Assembly (NCBI RefSeq): GCF_009914755.1
Contig: NC_060943.1
Strand: one strand, 5' to 3'
Origin: the human T2T-CHM13v2.0 reference genome, Homo sapiens
DNA: 64,000 nt
The position numbers and the translations under genes are program-made. Below the pieces are notes generated by a model. That model saw only the letters and a list, made by a program, of their open reading frames with translations. It did no database searches and was not told where the DNA came from. Positions 6,236 through 56,859 of this stretch are shown piece after piece. Positions within the stretch are counted from its first letter, which is position 1. Every line of letters begins with the position of its first letter.

Positions 6236-7535
6236 AAGATTCTTAACTTCTCTGAGCCTTCAATTCTTCAACTGAAAATTGCAATAATTCTCATCACTAA
6301 GAAATGGGTGGAAAAAATGAAAATTGAAATAACAATGCCTGTTTCATAGTATCGTTTTGAAGATTTAATGTAACATTTGATTAAGCCTTCAGCAAAATGC
6401 CACACACAAAGAAAAGCTTCACAAATATTAGCTATTATTATTACTACTGTTACCATTAACCTTAAAGTCAGGTAGTCCTAGAGTCAAATTCTAAATCCAC
6501 TTGTCACTAACCATGTGACTTTGGATAAGTTTTCTCATCACCCTAAGCCTCTGTCTTTTCATCTGTAAAATGGAAATAATGTCTACCCAAGAGAGTTACT
6601 GTATAAATCAAATGAGATACAGGTAAAGTATTTAGCACAGGGCCTGGTATCTAGGACATGCCCCTCAACAGTAGCTAACCTAGCATTAACCATCGCACTG
6701 AGATGACTGGTGAGGGCTAAGCACCAAATGGAAACTCACTAGGACATGGTTACTGGCTAAACATGGGAGAGAGGAAAAACAGTGCAAAGAATCAAGCCTG
6801 GTATGTTAGCTTTCATCCACTGAGATGCAGCCAAGATGGGATTAGAGGTACAAGATAATTCACTGGGTAAAACAGCCATGAGGGAAGGTGGAGCAGCAGT
6901 GACAGGAGAGCCTAAGAGAGCCCTCAGACCACGATGCAGATCTCATTCCTGAGAAGGAGAAAGAGAAGGAGGGAAGTTTTACATAGCAGTGCAGTTCTGA
7001 GTTTCCCCAAGACCGATGGGGAGTCCTTGAACCCCTCACCCATGAGAGTGAAGCAGGGTCTCACAGACCTGGGCTTGCTTTCTTTCCCCTGGTGGGAGCC
7101 CATGGGAAGTGAGTTCTCTGTGCAAAGAACATAGTAAATTCAGAATGCACTAGCCTGGGCCTTCTGTCCATCAAGTCCCTGCCATAGAGCTCCAACAGGC
7201 TCTTATTCATGGCTGCCACAATTGAGACACTGAGAAAAAGATGCAAACATAAAAATATAGAAAGTTCTAATGACATGCAAAAATAGCAATCAGACTTTCT
7301 CAAATTTTCAAAGCCTTCAAAAATGTCTGAGTGCAGAAAGAACAGGATGAAATTGACAGAAGACTGATCACCAACCTAGAAACGTGGTAAGAGAGAAAAA
7401 AAATTGCAACTTTCCCACAAAACTAGTGTATTCCTTGAAGGAACAAGTCAAGCCTACTTCATGTTGACAGCTAGTTCTTGGGGACCCCACTGTAGAATAA
7501 CATCACCTTCATTCCTTCTCTCTTCTTCCCACAAG

Positions 7536-7612
7536 GAAGTGCTCCTGTCCTCTCAGCTGTGGCCACCGTCGGCATCACGATTGGAGTGCTGGCCAGGGTG
7601 GCTCTGATATAG
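7536..7612 (+). CDS. CEACAM6: CEACAM6 exon 5 coding part, GPI-anchor signal GSAPVLSAVATVGITIGVLARVALI*; exon continues to 7652
   Basis: Pyrimidine tract + cacaag| acceptor, TAG at 7610-7612, donor ggcag|gtatga at 7653. With the family-standard 64+360 nt upstream exons the CDS is 1035 nt = 344 aa. Confidence 0.96.
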
Positions 7613-8077
7613 CAGCCCTGGTGTATTTTCGATATTTCAGGAAGACTGGCAGGTATGATCGCCTTTCCTCTTGCCATGTTTCCTGCAGGGCTGACCACCA
7701 TGCTTGGGAAAGGAAAAAAACTTCTTCACCTGTATCTGGGACTGGATCTCCTTCTACCGCTAAACTCCTGCTTCTCAGCACTAATTCCTGCAGGTCTCTT
7801 CTTCCCTGGTCTTCATGCTCCCTGTACCCCACTGTCTCCTAGATATAATTATCCCCAGCCTCTGCTCATTTGTTTCCTAGAGTCAATACATTGTCAAAGC
7901 CTCTTCGTCCTTTTTCAACATCTCTCACTTTTGTCAGTCTCTCCATTCCCATCAACCTCAATAATTGTTCAACATCCTGCTTGACCCCTTGTTGTAAGGT
8001 TGGAATCCTTCTTGCATATGACTGCCTCATTATCTTCCTAAAATCTAGTTCACTCACCTACTTAAGGAGCCAAAGGG

Positions 8078-8444
<367 letters not shown>

Positions 8445-9419
8445 TTACTTCCTTTCCCTCTACTTCCCAGTATAATTCCTCCATCTTAATTAGAATCTGA
8501 CTCTCTACACATCCCTGCCCCTTTACCCCGGATGCACATAGAATTCTTAGTTTCAATGTTACACCTAAAAACAGGGTGATCTCCCCTCCACTACCTGCCC
8601 TGTGGACTTACTCACACCCTTCATCACAAGCAACCTCTTATTTCATGGAGAACACAGACTGTGTAGTATTAATATGTGAACTTTGGACACATCCTGCATG
8701 TGGCTGAGAACCTTTTCCTGACAATCAATTCATGTGTTCATAACAGATACAGAAATGAAGAAGGCAAGGTCCCTACCCCCAGGGAACATAAAGCCCAAGA
8801 CAGGAGATAAGACCTGAAAAATAATCATGATACCAAAGTAGAAAGGAGCGAATGCCACAAAAATTCAGATAAATCTGATGGGAAATATAGCTACACATTG
8901 GAATCACTCCGAAACATTTTTAAAAACGGATGCTCAAGCCCCAACCATAAATTCTGATCTACTGATCTGGAGTGGGACCCAGGCATTGGTAATTTTTAAG
9001 CCTCTCCAGACGCTACTAATGTGTAGCCACGATGGAGGATCCCTGTTCTAATAGGTAGGACTTGGGGCTAAACCCATGGTTTTTAGCTAGGAGGATTAGA
9101 ATTACCTCTGGAGCTTTTTCAACATACATGGGCCTATACTTTGTTGGCCTAATTCATTAATGGGCTCCACCAAGAACTCAGTAATCTAACTGAGAAACAG
9201 AAACTAAAAGGAAAAGCCGCCTTATTTGATATGTTACATTATATGGGAAGCACTGTCAAATGATAAGTGATGCTAAACCTTCTCTAAGTTATATTTATGG
9301 TTATGTTATTGATGTGAGTGTTCCAAAAATTATAAGAGATTCCCAGAAATCTAACAGATTATAAGCCATAATGTCATATGCCACAGAAGTAACTAAATGT
9401 CTATGGGAGATGCATTCTT

Positions 9420-10178
9420 TTTTTATTTTTATTTTTATTTATTTTTATTTTTTTTTATTGATCATTCTTGGGTGTTTCTCGCAGAGGGGGATTTGGCAGG
9501 GTCATAGGACAATAGTGGAGGGAAGGTCAGCAGATAAACAAGTGAACAAAGAAACAAGTGAACAAAGGTCTCTGGTTTTCCTAGGCAGAGGACCCTGCGG
9601 CCTTCCGCAGTGTTTGTGTCCCTGGGTACTTGAGATTAGGGAGTGGTGATGACTCTTAACGAGCATGCTGCCTTCAAGGATCTGTTTAACAAAGCACATC
9701 TTGTACCGCCCTTAATCCATTTAACCCTGAGTGGACACAGCACATGTTTCAGAGAGCACAAGTTTGGGGGTAAGGTCACAGTTCAACAGGATCCCAAGGC
9801 AGAAGAATTTTTCTTAGTACAGAACAAAATGAAAAGTCTCCCATGTCTACTTCTTTCTACACAGACACGGCAACCATCCGATTTCTCAATCTTTTCCCCA
9901 CCTTTCCCCCTTTTCTATTCCACAAAACTGCCATTGTCATCATGGCCCGTTCTCAATGAGCTGTTGGGTACACCTCCCAGACGGGGTGGTGGCCAGGCAG
10001 AGGGGCTCCTCACTTCCCAGTAGGGGCGGCTGGGCAGAGGCGCCCCTCACCTCCCGGACGGGGCGGCTGGCCGGGCGGGGGGCTGACCCCCCCACCTCCC
10101 TCCCGGACGGGGCGGCTGGCCGGGCAGAGGGGCTCCTCACTTCCCAGTAGGGGCGGCCGGGCAGAGGCGCCCCTCACC
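9420..10178 (-). mobile_element. 5'-truncated SVA retrotransposon (VNTR remnant + SINE-R + poly(A))
   Basis: Antisense SINE-R and GC-rich VNTR units; perfect 16-bp TSD TGGGAGATGCATTCTT at 9404-9419 and 10179-10194. Confidence 0.95.
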
Positions 10179-10269
10179 TGGGAGATGCATTCTTATCATA
10201 ATGAACTCTCATCAGATGTTTAACCATACTCATTTTCAATCTTTGTCATTCACTGACAATTGTTTTTTG

Positions 10270-10600
<331 letters not shown>

Positions 10601-11029
10601 GACAATTATTTTGATTCTTCCTTCCTTAAAGCATTTGCAATCAGCTACCATCCAAAATTGCTTCTTCATTGAGGATATTTACAGAAAATACTCCGACATG
10701 TACTCTTGAATACAAGTTTCTGATAACATTAAAATCATACCATTAGACTATTTAAGAATTTCCAAAATTTTAACAAACTGATAGCTTCATGAAACTGCCA
10801 ACCAAGAGCAAGCAGAGAATTCATTTCATGAGACTAAAAGAAAATAATGAAAATAATATTTTTATGATTTTTTATTTGAAATTTTGTGGATTCTTTGTTT
10901 TGTTTCCCAGATTTCAGGAAACATTTTTTCTTTCAAGCTATCTAGAGCTTCAACAATTTTGCGAACAAAAATTGAAACATCTATATTTTCTCCCTACCTG
11001 ACTGCTCCAGAATTCGGAAATTATTCATG

Positions 11030-11260
11030 AATATTTATATGTTTATAATAATATCGTTATTTGCACAAAAAATATAGTTATTAATATTGTTATAAAATAA
11101 TTATTATTGATAAACAATTATTTGATGATCATTATTTAATAATTTATTAATATTTATTAATAAATTAATAATTATTATTTAACGACTAATTGTAATTGTT
11201 AATTAATATTAATATTATATAATAAATATAATAGTATAGTTATTTGCTCAATAAAAATCT
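11030..11260. repeat. AT-rich low-complexity tract
   Basis: Almost only A/T, irregular TAA/ATT repeats. Confidence 0.85.
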
Positions 11261-11479
11261 GCTCCCTTTATAACAGGATACATTTGAAAACACTGGTTAT
11301 ATTACCCAGGCTTTGATTGGGATGTTATATTTGGGAATATACATAGATGAACCCATAGGCACTGCTGGCAAAGTCTGAAGTCGGCCTTGGTTTGGCTTCC
11401 TCATGTCAAGAGGTTTCTAAAAGTTTAATCTGAGATTCCTTATAAAAACTTCCTGTAAAACAAACTTGAAAAGACCCCA

Positions 11480-11930
<451 letters not shown>

Positions 11931-12151
11931 CTATGTGGTCACCTGCTACTCTTGTTGCACTTATATAAAGAATGAGGCCAAGTTCGATGAGACTAAACTT
12001 ATTTGGAAAACAAATATGTCTTACTGGGATTATCTTTGGTAGAAATAAAGATGCCTATGAAGAGAAAAATTATGTTGAAAAAAACTATAGTACACCTGTT
12101 ATGACATCACAGCTCTGCTTATTGTTTTTTATTTTCATTATCCACCTATAG

Positions 12152-13557
12152 ATTGGACCAGACCCTGAATTCTTCTAGCTCCTCCAATCCCATTTTATCC
12201 CATGGAACCACTAAAAACAAGGTCTGCTCTGCTCCTGAAGCCCTATATGCTGGAGATGGACAACTCAATGAAAATTTAAAGGGAAAACCCTCAGGCCTGA
12301 GGTGTGTGCCACTCAGAGACTTCACCTAACTAGAGACAGGCAAACTGCAAACCATGGTGAGAAATTGACGACTTCACACTATGGACAGCTTTTCCCAAGA
12401 TGTCAAAACAAGACTCCTCATCATGATAAGGCTCTTACCCCCTTTTAATTTGTCCTTGCTTATGCCTGCCTCTTTCGCTTGGCAGGATGATGCTGTCATT
12501 AGTATTTCACAAGAAGTAGCTTCAGAGGGTAACTTAACAGAGTATCAGATCTATCTTGTCAATCCCAACGTTTTACATAAAATAAGAGATCCTTTAGTGC
12601 ACCCAGTGACTGACATTAGCAGCATCTTTAACACAGCCGTGTGTTCAAATGTACAGTGGTCCTTTTCAGAGTTGGACTTCTAGACTCACCTGTTCTCACT
12701 CCCTGTTTTAATTCAACCCAGCCATGCAATGCCAAATAATAGAATTGCTCCCTACCAGCTGAACAGGGAGGAGTCTGTGCAGTTTCTGACACTTGTTGTT
12801 GAACATGGCTAAATACAATGGGTATCGCTGAGACTAAGTTGTAGAAATTAACAAATGTGCTGCTTGGTTAAAATGGCTACACTCATCTGACTCATTCTTT
12901 ATTCTATTTTAGTTGGTTTGTATCTTGCCTAAGGTGCGTAGTCCAACTCTTGGTATTACCCTCCTAATAGTCATACTAGTAGTCATACTCCCTGGTGTAG
13001 TGTATTCTCTAAAAGCTTTAAATGTCTGCATGCAGCCAGCCATCAAATAGTGAATGGTCTCTCTTTGGCTGGAATTACAAAACTCAGAGAAATGTGTCAT
13101 CAGGAGAACATCATAACCCATGAAGGATAAAAGCCCCAAATGGTGGTAACTGATAATAGCACTAATGCTTTAAGATTTGGTCACACTCTCACCTAGGTGA
13201 GCGCATTGAGCCAGTGGTGCTAAATGCTACATACTCCAACTGAAATGTTAAGGAAGAAGATAGATCCAATTAAAAAAAATTAAAACCAATTTAAAAAAAA
13301 AAAGAACACAGGAGATTCCAGTCTACTTGAGTTAGCATAATACAGAAGTCCCCTCTACTTTAACTTTTACAAAAAAGTAACCTGAACTAATCTGATGTTA
13401 ACCAATGTATTTATTTCTGTGGTTCTGTTTCCTTGTTCCAATTTGACAAAACCCACTGTTCTTGTATTGTATTGCCCAGGGGGAGCTATCACTGTACTTG
13501 TAGAGTGGTGCTGCTTTAATTCATAAATCACAAATAAAAGCCAATTAGCTCTATAAC
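12152..13557 (+). other. CEACAM6: CEACAM6 terminal (3'UTR) exon
   Basis: Acceptor cacctatag|ATTGGACCAGACCC; continues the recalled mRNA junction ...GACTGGCAG-ATTGGACC; AATAAA at 13533-13538. Confidence 0.9.
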
Positions 13558-13586
13558 TAAATTTGTTGTAATTCTGTCTCTTGATG
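13300..13586 (+). mobile_element. MER65-like 3' LTR (partial) carrying the CEACAM6 poly(A) signal
   Basis: Ends AATAAAAGCCAATTAG...CTAAATTTGTTGTAATTCTGTCTCTTGA, resembling the recalled MER65 LTR terminus; lies directly after the env relic. Confidence 0.65.
13533..13538 (+). terminator. CEACAM6 polyadenylation signal
   Basis: AATAAA followed about 25 nt later by a GT/T-rich tract (tttgttgtaattctgtctc). Confidence 0.85.
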
Positions 13587-13589
13587 TGG

Positions 13590-13843
13590 GTTCACAGCCA
13601 GCCACGGCCAGTGGAGTCTCTCAGGCGGCGTCATTCTCACTCCGACCCTCCTGCCTTCCTCTTTCACTTACAAGGGCCCTTCTGAATACACTGAGCTCGC
13701 CCAGATTATCCAGAATAACCTCCCATCTCAAGATCCTTAACTTTACTTATTTGCAAAGTATTTTTGCCAAATAATGTAACATGCACATGTTCCAGGGATT
13801 AGGATGTGGACATTTTTAGGAGGTCATTATTCTGCCTAACACA
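13590..13843 (-). mobile_element. MLT1-type MaLR LTR fragment
   Basis: ataacctcccatctcaagatccttaac...ttccagggattaggatgtggacat...ttctgcctaacaca. Confidence 0.75.
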
Positions 13844-55074: not shown

Positions 55075-56859
55075 TCACCAGCCCTTCAATAGTTCATGGA
55101 CATCAGCACCATGGATAGTGACCACGGAAGGGTCATCCCCAGGCACTGCAGCAGGGAGCGCACAGATGGAAAGAAACTGCCGGGAAAAGCTGCCCAGTCT
55201 ATTCTGCCTGAGAAAGACACAATGAGGGAGAACCTGATTCTTCTCTAATTTATTTGTTGTGAGCCCTGTGCACATGACTAAATGTTAGGGTTGTTGGCAA
55301 AGGTTGTTGACACCCCTGGCAGGGCTGATTTCTGTACCCAAAGTATGACCTTGGAGAGGCTGAGTCTGCTCTGGTTTCCCAGTGAATGTCCCTACCTCTG
55401 AGACTCAAGCCATTGTCTCTGCCTACAACACAGTGGGAACTTTTCATGATTAACTTCCGACCCCCGTGCCTGACCTTGGAACCACTACCATCACCCAGCC
55501 TGGAGCACTGCCTGAGCACAGCATCCTGTTCCCTGAGCTCCAGCTAAGCCCCTGGGAAGCTGAGCTGAACCGAGCCCCTGAACAATCCTCTCAGTGACTC
55601 CAGGCCAGGCCTCGTGCCCCATGTCAGAGGCCTTTGCCATCTGCCAGTCCTTCCCACACAATCCTCCTGAGGGACAAGTGGAGGCCTGAACATCTGTCTC
55701 CCAGGGTAGGGCCCAACTTCTCCAGGAGACAAAAACAGACCAGAGTCCTCCCAGTCACCCTCACCCTCCTCATTCCCACCACTTCCCACCCACAGAGGCA
55801 ACTCTGGTCCTACAGACCCACCCCTGCCCTTCCCAAGAGCTCAGGTCCAGTCAATCAGTGTCCCTGCAGGTCACACACACACACCACTCAGAGTGCTCAG
55901 TGGAAGGGTCCACTCAGGTCCCCACTGAGAGTCTCCCGTGCTTTGGATGGGTCAGAATCCTCTTCACATCCCACATCTGGGCAGTCAACAAGGTCTTCTC
56001 TGCACTGTCCTCGCACCTACAGTGTCTGTCTTGGTCATCCTCGTCATCTTTTCTGAGCACGGCCACAGCTCCTAACAAGTGGGGTTAAGGCTCCTGACAG
56101 ATAGGGTTAAGGCATAGGACCGTGATTCTGAGGGCTTCTCAGGTCTTGCCTGTTATGTGAAATTAGCATGTACAACACATAGAATTTGTATGTTTACCTC
56201 ATAATTTTAATGTGCACACCCTTTGATCATTAATTAGTCACATTAAGAAGAGCCTCCCCTGAATCGTGAGTTCTAAGGAGGCAGGAGTACACCTGTCCTG
56301 GTCTCTGCTAAGTCCAGTGACAAGCACCCAGTCTGGCACAAGGATGCTTCATAAATACATGTGGAATAAATGAGATCCTCTTACACCCTGCTCACTTCCC
56401 TGACTTATGTGACCAGACGGAAACTCCTAATGTACAGGAGAGAAAGGCAGAAATGCTGGAGACCAGCGAGAAAGCTGTTTTTTGAAAGAGCAGCAAGTTC
56501 CAGGCCTCTAAAGATACTTCTGGACTTTACGTGGTGCAGAGAAAAAGACAAAACCAATACATTCCCTTCAAACCACTAAAGTGGGTGGGGCCATAGCCTA
56601 ACTGAGAAAGAAAAAGACCAAGGTAGGGTACAGTTCCCCTAACCCACTTTGTTTCCAGACATCAAAAAATACAGTTTGTGGTCTTGGACTCTGATGTGGA
56701 AAAAGTACAAACCAAAAATTGTGTTACCACTAATTTCCTTGCTATGAGCAGTCATGAAATATCAATGTACAACCATACATGCAAAGATACAAATTCAAAC
56801 AGCACTTCAGTGAACATTCACAGGACCAGTGTCAGAGGTCTGCAAACTAACTACATTTG

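What the first reader, a model, noticed from the sequence alone, without database searches (positions are those of the whole stretch)
12152..13586. The whole CEACAM6 terminal exon appears to be a captured endogenous-retrovirus env/LTR module
Seen in sequence: translating the 3'UTR gives three colinear Env signatures. (i) A signal peptide/SU start, LSLLMPASFAWQDDAVISISQEVASEGNLTEYQIYL, where GAG TAT CAG ATC TAT (12540-12554) looks like a decayed E-C-W-I-C. (ii) An immunosuppressive domain plus CX6CC, NNRIA/LPAEQGGVCAVSDTCC*TWLNTMGIAET (12735-12835), with the last Cys mutated to TGA. (iii) A membrane anchor, TLGITLLIVILVVIL...LNVCMQP (12946-13038). An LTR-like end then holds the AATAAA. Established: CxxC, ISD, CX6CC and TM are gamma-type Env hallmarks, and EnvV (recalled) begins similarly (LSLLPMPLLSQAQWNENSLVSFSKIIASGNHLSNCWICH). 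Inference: the acceptor at 12152 may be the proviral env splice acceptor and the poly(A) site the 3' LTR's own. The provirus would then have replaced the ancestral cytoplasmic exons. Most of SU is deleted. MER65 exonisation has been discussed for PSG genes, so this may be partly known.
Basis: partly seen in the sequence, partly recalled or inferred. Interest (0 to 1): 0.85.

Follow-up and report, generated by a model that had tools for sequence, protein, structure and literature searches.

The report
CEACAM6 last exon is retroviral debris
The untranslated last exon of human CEACAM6 is made entirely from the tail end (decayed envelope gene plus terminal repeat) of an ancient endogenous retrovirus, which supplies both the splice site and the poly(A) signal that end the gene.

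Summary
All three translated blocks lie at the stated coordinates.

**The exon is retroviral.**
- Whole-genome searches show that window 9221-13586 is one member of a dispersed repeat family with copies on many chromosomes.
- The part matching window 10810-12543 matches what a 2026 paper calls MER65-int in PSG9.
- Other copies still encode C-W-I-C where CEACAM6 has E-Y-Q-I-Y, and S-C-C-T-W where CEACAM6 has C-C-stop.
- The read-through translation finds Syncytin-2 as its best solved-structure match, but only weakly (E 0.03).

**Both ends of the exon lie in the retrovirus.**
- The acceptor at 12152 lies inside the element and is ancestral to the family.
- The exon ends in the 3' LTR (about 13214-13586).
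- The AATAAA at 13533-13538 sits where other LTR copies carry it.
- The LTR ends exactly at 13586.

- The loss of most of SU is a family-wide feature, not a CEACAM6 event.
- The element reaches 2.9 kb upstream into the intron.
- The cytoplasmic exons were removed by a separate 6.1-kb deletion, with its junction at window 7846. It is shared by 16 CEACAM/PSG paralogs and absent from CEACAM1.
- Whether 12152 was the virus's own env acceptor is unproven.

MER65 use at PSG and CEACAM8 3' ends, and overlap with a CEACAM5 exon, are already published. This is a new member of a known kind.

The parts
7846..7846 (+). Junction of a 6120-bp deletion relative to CEACAM1. The deleted block held the ITIM-coding cytoplasmic exon and the CEACAM1-type 3' end.
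   Evidence: Window 7760-7846 aligns to CEACAM1 L069rc 2857-2943, and window 7846-7958 aligns to L068rc 1064-1175. The ITIM exon lies in between. The junction is contiguous in 16 chr19 paralogs and split only in CEACAM1.
9221..13210 (+). 5'-truncated internal part of the ERV (MER65-int type). It is interrupted by an SVA (9409-10181), an Alu (10276-10600), an AT-rich stretch (11069-11231) and an Alu (11478-11921).
   Evidence: Colinear blastn matches to 8 dispersed copies on chr1, 2, 3, 4, 5, 6, 8 and 10. Genome searches. No 5' LTR in 7600-13100.
12150..12152 (+). 3' splice site (AG at 12150-12151; first exon base 12152) inside the ERV, preceded by a pyrimidine-rich tract.
   Evidence: Exon start from the RefSeq table supplied with the finding. 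YAG at the same column in 5 of 7 dispersed copies and 5 of 5 chr19 paralogs aligned.
12423..12479 (+). Signal-peptide-like start of env: ATG at 12423, then MIRLLPPFNLSLLMPASFA.
   Evidence: Frame 2 translation. An ATG at or next to this codon is present in L055, L064, L065, L067, the CEACAM5 paralog and L037. The reading as a signal peptide is by inspection only; no predictor was run.
12540..12554 (+). Decayed CXXC motif of SU (reads E-Y-Q-I-Y here).
   Evidence: Homologous site reads NCWICH (L062), NCWICR (L063), ECWICH (L064), KCWICH (L053), KCEICH (L065), ECWIIH (L067), KHWIRH (L066) and KHWIHY (L055).
12735..12835 (+). Immunosuppressive-domain remnant (NNRIA, then a frameshift, then LPAEQGG) and CX6CC with the last Cys now TGA (12800-12802).
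   Evidence: Translations. Syncytin-2 7oix_A is the best solved-structure match, E 0.032. Copies L055, L062 and L063 read S-C-C-T at the site. Copy L053 also finds Syncytin-2, E 0.015.
12902..13053 (+). Membrane-proximal FYFSWF (frame 1, 12902-12919), membrane anchor (frame 3, 12946-13002), short tail and stops (13048-13053).
   Evidence: the alignment runs to Syncytin-2 residue 497. Hydrophobicity rank. Illustrative frameshift-aware alignment.
13214..13586 (+). 3' LTR. It lacks its first ~80-95 bp, and the polypurine tract before it is also missing.
   Evidence: Alignment with 5 solitary LTR copies and 3 proviral copies. The truncation is shared by 10 of 10 chr19 paralogs. The LTR end TTTTGACA is seen in 4 of 5 solitary copies and reads CTTGATG in the window.
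13533..13538 (+). AATAAA poly(A) signal inside the LTR. Annotated cleavage at 13561; GU-rich stretch at 13562-13590.
   Evidence: Sequence. Same hexamer in LTR copies L057 and L060; one-base variants in L058, L059 and L061. AATAAA in 8 and ATTAAA in 1 of 9 paralogs.
13587..13696 (+). Host flank on the right of the integration site.
   Evidence: Homology to an LTR-free locus (L052, chr19:45.279 Mb) starts within 4 nt of the LTR end.

Best explanation
The last exon of CEACAM6 (12152-13561) is built wholly from the 3' part of an ancient class I (ERV1, MER65-type) provirus lying in sense orientation.

**What the exon contains.**
- About 270 nt of sequence upstream of env.
- A decayed env that kept its signal-peptide region, CXXC motif, immunosuppressive domain, CX6CC and membrane anchor.
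- A short spacer.
- Most of the 3' LTR.

**How it works.**
- The donor after the GPI-signal exon (7652) joins an acceptor that the retrovirus family already carried.
- The transcript is cleaved 23 nt after the LTR's own AATAAA.
- The stop codon (7610-7612) lies 40 nt before this last junction. All retroviral sequence is therefore 3' UTR, and by the 50-55-nt rule the message should escape nonsense-mediated decay.

**History.**
- The element was already internally deleted and 5'-truncated when the gene family expanded.
- The same insertion, with the same flanks, is present at CEACAM5, CEACAM7, a paralog at 45.40 Mb (probably CEACAM8) and the PSG loci.
- All of these also share one 6.1-kb deletion that removed the CEACAM1-type cytoplasmic exons and 3' end.
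- The retroviral acceptor and LTR poly(A) site serve as the replacement 3' end.

**Shown versus inferred.** Shown: the homology, boundaries, motif states and shared junctions. Inferred: the order of deletion and capture, and that 12152 was the virus's env acceptor.
For: **Dispersed family.**
- Searches give matches on many chromosomes.
- Eight copies align colinearly with window 9221-13201, at 68-72% identity over the long blocks. All of them join 11477 to 11922 without the Alu.

**LTR.**
- Solitary copies exist at five unrelated loci.
- The copies start with TG and end with CA.
- A purine tract precedes the LTR in proviral copies L053 and L062.
- An LTR end also lies upstream of the internal part in L053 and L055.

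**Env.**
- Syncytin-2 is the top solved-structure hit for the window (E 0.032).
- It is also the top hit for copy L053. There, 6 of the 7 listed hits are retroviral Env TM chains.
- The tile 12602-12961 ranks first or second of 2124 six-frame tiles for 8 of 8 D-type/RD114-like Env queries.
- CWIC and CC are preserved in sister copies.
- The anchor sits 49 codons after CC, and so hydrophobic a stretch is rare in this window.

**Acceptor and AATAAA are ancestral.**

**Family name.** Three PSG9 primers printed in the supplement of PMC12969887 match locus L044 exactly. Their 'MER65-int' amplicon aligns to window about 10810-12543. A 628-bp ERV piece at CEACAM5 matches the 624-bp MER65-int-dup5 of PMC9626538.

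**Shared history.**
Against: **Protein-level evidence is weak.**
- Pfam found no TLV_coat or any other retroviral domain in the exon, in the intron or in 24 read-through frames of 8 sister copies.
- Solved-structure E-values are marginal. Copy L063 gave no hit at all.
- Six MLV-like Env queries did not pick the tile in their top five.
- With the AEQGG-C seed masked, my frameshift-aware alignment scored no better than the controls.
- The 8 Env queries that did hit were fetched with a motif taken from the window, so that test is partly circular.

**Other gaps.**
- No pol similarity was found upstream of the acceptor. The pol-env junction expected at an env acceptor could therefore not be shown.
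- PMC12969887 states that MER65 elements lie within 50 bp of gene 3' ends only at PSGs and CEACAM8. RepeatMasker may therefore not label the CEACAM6 LTR as MER65.
Confidence: 0.9

Rival explanations
1. The exon is retroviral, but the acceptor at 12152 is only a splice-site-like sequence that happened to lie in the element. It was not the site the virus used to make env mRNA. The capture would then be ordinary exonisation of a cryptic site.
For: No pol remnant was found upstream and no Pfam domain, so a pol-env junction is not shown. CEACAM5 ends its mRNA at a different place in the same element, at about window 12022. The paralog at 45.40 Mb lacks the acceptor region altogether. Several sites in this element can therefore serve.
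Against: YAG plus a pyrimidine tract at this column is ancestral to the family: 5 of 7 dispersed copies have it. It lies 271 nt upstream of the env ATG, which is a typical position for an env acceptor. That last point rests on general knowledge of simple retroviruses, not on a call.
Confidence: 0.45
2. One reading: the provirus physically replaced the ancestral cytoplasmic exons. Insertion and loss would be one event.
For: The provirus is 5'-truncated and its left junction (9128-9220) is not a normal integration junction. A deletion therefore did remove its 5' half together with host DNA. The homolog of the right flank lies 45 kb beyond CEACAM1.
Against: The block holding the ITIM exon is missing through a clean 6120-bp deletion with its junction at 7846. 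Another 1.3 kb of CEACAM1-flank homology (7846-9127) follows before the element begins. Two separate rearrangements are needed.
Confidence: 0.08
3. The Env-like motifs are chance matches in an AT-rich 3' UTR, and the exon is ordinary unique sequence.
For: Pfam is silent. Solved-structure E-values are only 0.015-0.03. The control with the seed masked is negative.
Against: Dozens of dispersed DNA copies exist. Solitary LTRs have TG...CA ends. The motifs are better preserved in sister copies.
Confidence: 0.01

Closest known systems
MER65-int-derived 3' ends of PSG genes and CEACAM8 (Genome Biol 2026, PMC12969887; abstract and passages read)
   Same: It is the same retroviral insertion. The PSG9 'MER65-int' amplicon of that paper is homologous to window about 10810-12543. 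The element supplies poly(A) signals to CEA-family genes.
   Different: That paper does not name CEACAM6 or CEACAM5. It places the insertion after the PSG ancestor split from a membrane-bound CEACAM. Here the insertion, its LTR truncation and its flanks are shared by CEACAM5, 6 and 7, the 45.40-Mb paralog and the PSG loci. CEACAM6 uses the LTR signal rather than a signal in the internal part.
CEACAM5 exon overlapping MER65-int-dup5 (eBioMedicine 2022, PMC9626538; passages read)
   Same: It is the paralogous copy of the same element. The 628-bp ERV piece at CEACAM5 fits the published 624-bp element.
   Different: CEACAM5 ends its mRNA at about window-equivalent 12022, after an AATAAA that reads ACTAAA in CEACAM6. 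CEACAM6 splices 130 nt further on and runs to the LTR.
Gamma-type retroviral Env TM subunits (Syncytin-2, Syncytin-1, Mason-Pfizer-type Env in the PDB)
   Same: The order is the same: immunosuppressive domain, CX6CC, membrane-proximal W-rich stretch, anchor. They are the best solved-structure matches.
   Different: The copy is broken by stops and frameshifts. Only about 72 codons separate CXXC from the ISD, against about 215 in the natural Envs fetched. No furin site, fusion peptide or first heptad repeat is recognisable.
LTR- and TE-derived polyadenylation sites in general (for example Lee, Ji and Tian 2008, seen only in a reference list)
   Same: A sense-oriented LTR provides the AATAAA and cleavage site of a host gene.
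   Different: Here the acceptor, the whole exon body and the poly(A) site all come from one provirus. The arrangement is inherited by a whole gene family.

Membership tests
Gamma-type (class I / ERV1) retroviral Env | CXXC motif in SU | tested here: met
   It is decayed in the window (E-Y-Q-I-Y, 12540-12554). C-W-I-C is present at the homologous site in 4 of 8 sister copies and C-E-I-C in a fifth.
Gamma-type (class I / ERV1) retroviral Env | Immunosuppressive domain followed by CX6CC in TM | tested here: met
   NNRIA..LPAEQGGVCAVSDTCC-TGA at 12735-12802. It aligns to the same motif of Syncytin-2. Sister copies read C-x6-C-C. Statistical support is only marginal (E 0.015-0.03).
Gamma-type (class I / ERV1) retroviral Env | C-terminal membrane anchor at the usual distance from CX6CC | tested here: met
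   The hydrophobic 19-mer at 12946-13002 lies 49 codons after CC. It is one of 7 such stretches in six frames of 64 kb.
Gamma-type (class I / ERV1) retroviral Env | Furin cleavage site, fusion peptide and N-terminal heptad repeat between SU and the ISD | tested here: not met
   Only about 72-73 codons lie between CXXC and AEQGG in the window and in L053. None has an R-x-K/R-R site or a fusion-peptide-like run. The family env is internally deleted, or too decayed to read.
Gamma-type (class I / ERV1) retroviral Env | Match to Pfam TLV_coat (PF00429) | tested here: not met
   There were no Pfam hits at E <= 10 for the exon frames and pieces. There were none at E <= 1 for 24 frames of 8 sister copies.
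MER65 (MER65-int with MER65 LTRs; Repbase/Dfam ERV1) | DNA similarity to the MER65-int and MER65A-D reference sequences | not testable with these tools
   No Dfam, Repbase or RepeatMasker was on hand.
MER65 (MER65-int with MER65 LTRs; Repbase/Dfam ERV1) | Homology to sequence that published RepeatMasker-based work labels MER65-int | tested here: met
   The PSG9 'MER65-int' primers (supplement of PMC12969887) match L044 exactly. The amplicon aligns to window about 10810-12543. The CEACAM5 piece is 628 bp against the published 624 bp. The LTR part (13214-13586) has no such published anchor.
LTR retroelement (provirus / solo LTR structure) | LTR with TG...CA termini, found solitary and flanking internal sequence, with a polypurine tract before the 3' LTR | tested here: met
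   Searches show this in sister copies. In the window the PPT and the first ~80-95 bp of the LTR are deleted and the terminal CA reads TG. No target-site duplication could be checked, because the 5' end is gone.
TE-derived terminal exon with TE-derived poly(A) site | The acceptor, exon body and poly(A) signal of an annotated transcript all lie inside one element, at positions ancestral to that element | tested here: met
   RefSeq exon 12152-13561 (table supplied with the finding). The element spans 9221-13586. The acceptor and AATAAA are ancestral.

The most novel reading that the evidence does not exclude
One sense-oriented MER65-type provirus and one 6.1-kb deletion, both fixed in a single early-primate CEACAM1 duplicate, created a 'tail-less' prototype gene. 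Its only usable 3' ends were retroviral. Every GPI-anchored CEACAM (5, 6, 7, 8) and every PSG would descend from that prototype. The paralogs would differ mainly in which acceptor and poly(A) site of the same dead provirus they use. The retroviral capture would then be a precondition for the whole primate GPI-CEACAM/PSG radiation, not a PSG-specific event as currently modelled.
Probability: 0.45. Interest if true: 0.65.

Novelty: new member of a known kind. Interest (0 to 1): 0.45.

Why it matters
**Gene-family history.** CEACAM6 and CEACAM5 are major tumour markers and pathogen decoy receptors. Their GPI anchorage is usually explained only by mutations in the transmembrane exon. These results add the other half of the story:
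- The ITIM-bearing exons and the original 3' end were lost in a single deletion.
- A dead retrovirus supplies the replacement splice acceptor and poly(A) site.
- The deletion junction is shared by 16 chr19 CEACAM/PSG paralogs, and the retroviral insertion by the CEACAM5, CEACAM7, 45.40-Mb and PSG-region paralogs aligned.

This revises the published model, which dates the MER65 insertion to the PSG ancestor.

**A practical warning.** Reads from CEACAM5 and CEACAM6 3' UTRs will be counted as 'MER65-int expression' in cancer repeat-transcriptome studies. PMC6925957 and PMC9626538 both report such signals.

Tried and rejected
**Family and protein searches that found nothing useful.**
- Pfam on exon frames and pieces, on the intron and on 24 sister-copy frames gave no retroviral domain.
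- The search for homologous proteins with the TM piece gave no hit. That library seems to lack vertebrate ERV proteins.
- The search for related loci with an Env alignment returned only the same eight viral contigs.

**Tests that did not separate signal from controls.**
- The frameshift-aware protein-DNA alignment gave control scores as high as the real ones with lenient penalties. With stricter penalties the whole excess came from the seed motif. It is kept only as an illustration.
- phmmer of 14 natural Envs against the first 590 nt of the exon gave nothing above the reverse-strand controls. Block (i) was settled by sister copies instead.
- Eight natural pol C-termini against the upstream ERV part gave a best E of 0.1.

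**EnvV.** The genome search with the block (i) peptide and with a natural TM listed no candidate I could assign to ERVV.

**Side-tracks.**
- The locus at chr19:45.279 Mb (L052) was examined as a possible empty site. It shares only the right flank.
- The stretch just downstream of CEACAM1 (L068) has no TM or ITIM exon. CEACAM1 itself was found in the next 8 kb.
- The within-window self-comparison masked the query region. It could not have found a 5' LTR, so the search was redone, which was negative.

**Literature.** The search for CEACAM6 + endogenous retrovirus + polyadenylation found 0 papers. MER65 + CEACAM found 5 papers. Of the four I opened with find, none named CEACAM6 together with MER65 in the passages shown. 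I did not open PMC13713651, PMC9429973 or the bioRxiv version. The CEACAM evolution papers PMC2832619 and PMC11646289 contain no word starting with 'retro'.
Full report
**1. Observation**

The three translated blocks are at the stated places.
- Frame 2 has a stop-free 104-codon stretch at 12369-12683. It contains ...MIRLLPPFNLSLLMPASFAWQDDAVISISQEVASEGNLTEYQIYL.
- NNRIA is at 12735-12749 in frame 2. Two bases later, frame 1 reads LPAEQGGVCAVSDTCC (12752-12799), then TGA, then TWLNTMGIAET.
- Frame 3 reads TLGITLLIVILVVILPGVVYSLKALNVCMQPAIK, followed by two stops (12946-13053).
- The acceptor AG is at 12150-12151.
- AATAAA is at 13533-13538, 23 nt before the annotated end at 13561.

**2. Protein-level tests on the exon alone were weak**

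- Pfam found nothing at E <= 10 for the three read-through frames or for four pieces.
- phmmer against solved structures ranked full-length Syncytin-2 (7oix_A) first for frame 1, at E 0.032.
  - Query residues 200-270 align to Syncytin-2 residues 422-497.
  - That covers the end of the immunosuppressive domain, CX6CC and the membrane-proximal stretch.
  - Syncytin-2 (6rx3) and a Mason-Pfizer-type Env (4jf3) were second and fourth.
- Frames 2 and 3 gave no Env hit.

I fetched natural retroviral Env genes from IMG/VR: eight through a motif shared with the window and six MLV-like ones through an independent motif.
- Against 2124 read-through tiles of the whole window, tile 12602-12961 was first or second for 8 of 8 of the first set (E 0.0015-0.02).
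- It was not in the top five for 0 of 6 of the second set.
- The first set was chosen with the window's own motif.
- With that motif masked, a frameshift-aware alignment did no better than the controls.
- A 19-residue stretch as hydrophobic as 12946-13002 occurs only 7 times in six frames of the window, and it lies 49 codons after CC.

**3. The decisive evidence is DNA homology in the window's own genome**

The window's assembly turned out to be searchable.
- For window 12600-13600, 29 of the 47 listed matches lie on other chromosomes. For 11935-12650, 14 of 46 do. Window 10601-11477 and 9221-9372 also have dispersed matches.
- Only the best candidates were scored in each search (40 in the DNA searches, 150 in the protein searches), so these are lower bounds.
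- Eight copies, on chr1, 2, 3, 4, 5, 6, 8 and 10, align colinearly with the window.
  - The aligned blocks are 9221-9372, about 10601-11068, about 11239-11477 and 11922-13201.
  - Identity is 68-72% over the long blocks.
  - All copies join 11477 directly to 11922.
- The Alu at 11478-11921, the Alu at 10276-10600 and the SVA at 9409-10181 are therefore later insertions into one retroviral stretch.
- The acceptor at 12152 lies well inside that stretch.
- No 5' LTR is present in 7600-13100.

**4. The LTR**

Window 13217-13584 matches solitary copies at five unrelated loci. In a MAFFT alignment these copies stop resembling each other immediately after ...TTTTGACA (4 of 5). The window reads ...CTTGATG there, ending at 13586.

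Upstream, the solitary copies begin TGTTAAAC... or a near variant. In proviral copies L053 and L062 that start is preceded by a purine tract.

The window lacks the purine tract and the first ~80-95 bp of the LTR. All 10 chr19 paralogs share this truncation, and CEACAM6 has lost 14 nt more.

The AATAAA column reads as follows:

| Copies | State at the AATAAA column |
|---|---|
| 2 of 5 solitary LTRs | AATAAA |
| 3 of 5 solitary LTRs | AGTAAA, AATAGA, AATTAA |
| 8 of 9 paralogs | AATAAA |
| 1 of 9 paralogs | ATTAAA |

The right flank starts right after the LTR. A locus 45 kb beyond CEACAM1 (L052) carries the flank from that point on and has no LTR.

**5. Env anatomy from sister copies**

Each copy was read on its own, with X at stops.
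- At the site of E-Y-Q-I-Y the copies read NCWICH, NCWICR, ECWICH, KCWICH, KCEICH, ECWIIH, KHWIRH and KHWIHY.
- Copy L053 independently finds Syncytin-2 (E 0.015). Six of its 7 listed hits are retroviral Env chains. Copy L063 finds nothing.
- An ATG at or next to window 12423 is present in several copies and paralogs. It is followed by a hydrophobic run ending ...SFA/T before WQD. This looks like a signal peptide by inspection only.
- Only about 72 codons separate CXXC from AEQGG, in the window and in all copies. The natural Envs fetched have about 215.
- The loss of most of SU, the cleavage site, the fusion peptide and the first heptad repeat is therefore a property of the family.

**6. The acceptor**

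- The column of the AG carries YAG in 5 of 7 dispersed copies and in 5 of 5 paralogs aligned. A pyrimidine-rich tract lies upstream throughout.
- The splice site came with the element and lies 271 nt before the env ATG.
- That it was the viral env acceptor is plausible but not shown.
- No pol similarity was detectable upstream (best E 0.1 among 488 tiles).

**7. Family name**

- No Dfam tool was available.
- PMC12969887 (abstract and passages read; one supplementary primer table read) reports that MER65-int provides poly(A) signals to PSGs and CEACAM8.
- Three of its PSG9 primers match locus L044 exactly. Its 'MER65-int' amplicon aligns to window about 10810-12543.
- PMC9626538 (passages read) says part of a 624-bp MER65-int element serves as a CEACAM5 exon. 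The ERV piece at CEACAM5 is 628 bp.
- Neither paper names CEACAM6.
- PMC5753468 (passages) lists MER65A-D as the LTRs of MER65-int.

**8. History in the gene family**

The same element with the same flanks lies at several chr19 loci.

| Locus | State relative to CEACAM6 |
|---|---|
| CEACAM5 | Annotated end maps to window about 12022, after an AATAAA that is ACTAAA in CEACAM6 |
| CEACAM7 | Annotated end maps to window about 13558, the same LTR site as CEACAM6 |
| Paralog at 45.40 Mb | Probably CEACAM8; the name is inferred from recalled gene order. Lacks 11348-12533 |
| PSG loci | Same element and flanks |

CEACAM1 was identified in L069 by an exon encoding ...VTYSTLNF...IIYSEVKKQ. I recognised those motifs from memory.

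Relative to CEACAM1:
- Window 7406-7846 and window 7846-8997 are separated by 6120 bp that contain that exon.
- Sixteen chr19 paralogs run straight across the junction. Only CEACAM1 is split.
- CEACAM1-flank homology then continues to 9127. The element begins at about 9221.

Two rearrangements are therefore needed: the 6.1-kb deletion, and a second one that removed the 5' half of the provirus.

**9. Mechanism and verdict**

- The stop codon (7610-7612) lies 40 nt before the last exon junction. The retroviral exon is pure 3' UTR.
- It serves as splice target and 3'-end-forming module after the loss of the ancestral 3' end.
- Which came first, capture or deletion, is open.
- The kind of event is already published for PSGs and CEACAM8, and noted in passing for CEACAM5.
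- What is added here:
  - CEACAM6 as a clear case that uses the LTR site.
  - The base-level anatomy of the element.
  - Evidence that the insertion and a cytoplasmic-exon deletion are shared by the GPI-CEACAM and PSG genes.

Noticed in passing
window 9409-10181 (minus strand): An SVA-type composite retroelement is inserted in the intron. It is flanked on both sides by the direct repeat GGGAGATGCATTCTT. It interrupts the retroviral stretch.
   Followed up: partly
window 11478-11921: An Alu is inserted into the retroviral sequence. It is absent from all 8 dispersed copies and from the CEACAM7, 45.40-Mb and PSG paralogs. It is present in CEACAM5, so it dates between those duplications.
   Followed up: partly
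window about 11996-12025; L034 880-900: CEACAM5's annotated mRNA end maps here, 130 nt before the CEACAM6 acceptor. CEACAM5 has AATAAA about 20 nt upstream of its end, where CEACAM6 reads ACTAAA. The two paralogs therefore use different 3' ends within the same dead provirus.
   Followed up: partly
window 7213-7232; L069 6030-6049: The published PSG9 3'-UTR forward primer matches the CEACAM6 intron about 300 bp upstream of the GPI-signal exon with 2 mismatches. It matches CEACAM1 with 1 mismatch. The PSG C-terminal/3'-UTR exon therefore derives from sequence that is intronic in CEACAM6.
   Followed up: no
window 13640-13843: A different short dispersed repeat of about 200 bp, with many copies on other chromosomes, lies just downstream of the LTR. 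Its family was not identified.
   Followed up: no
L033 (chr19:45.398-45.401 Mb): This paralog, probably CEACAM8, lacks the equivalent of window 11348-12533, including the CEACAM6 acceptor and the env start. It must use another acceptor.
   Followed up: no
L052 (chr19:45.2765-45.2864 Mb) against window 13587 onward: The homolog of the right flank of the element lies about 45 kb beyond the homolog of the left flank, which is next to CEACAM1. In CEACAM6 the two are 4.4 kb apart. A large rearrangement accompanied the loss of the provirus's 5' half.
   Followed up: partly
window 11069-11231: An AT-rich low-complexity stretch lies inside the retroviral sequence. It has no counterpart among the other loci listed, whether chr19 paralogs or dispersed copies; the only row that overlaps it is a minus-strand self-match of the window.
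   Followed up: no
window 55622-55981 (+): A read-through tile here scored E 0.0085 against the N-terminal part of one natural Env (L001), and more weakly against a second. It is probably chance. Not examined.
   Followed up: no
literature: Two cancer repeat-transcriptome papers report 'MER65-int' up-regulation with very variable levels (PMC6925957, PMC9626538). Reads from CEACAM5/6 3' UTRs could explain this. It is an inference and was not tested.
   Followed up: no
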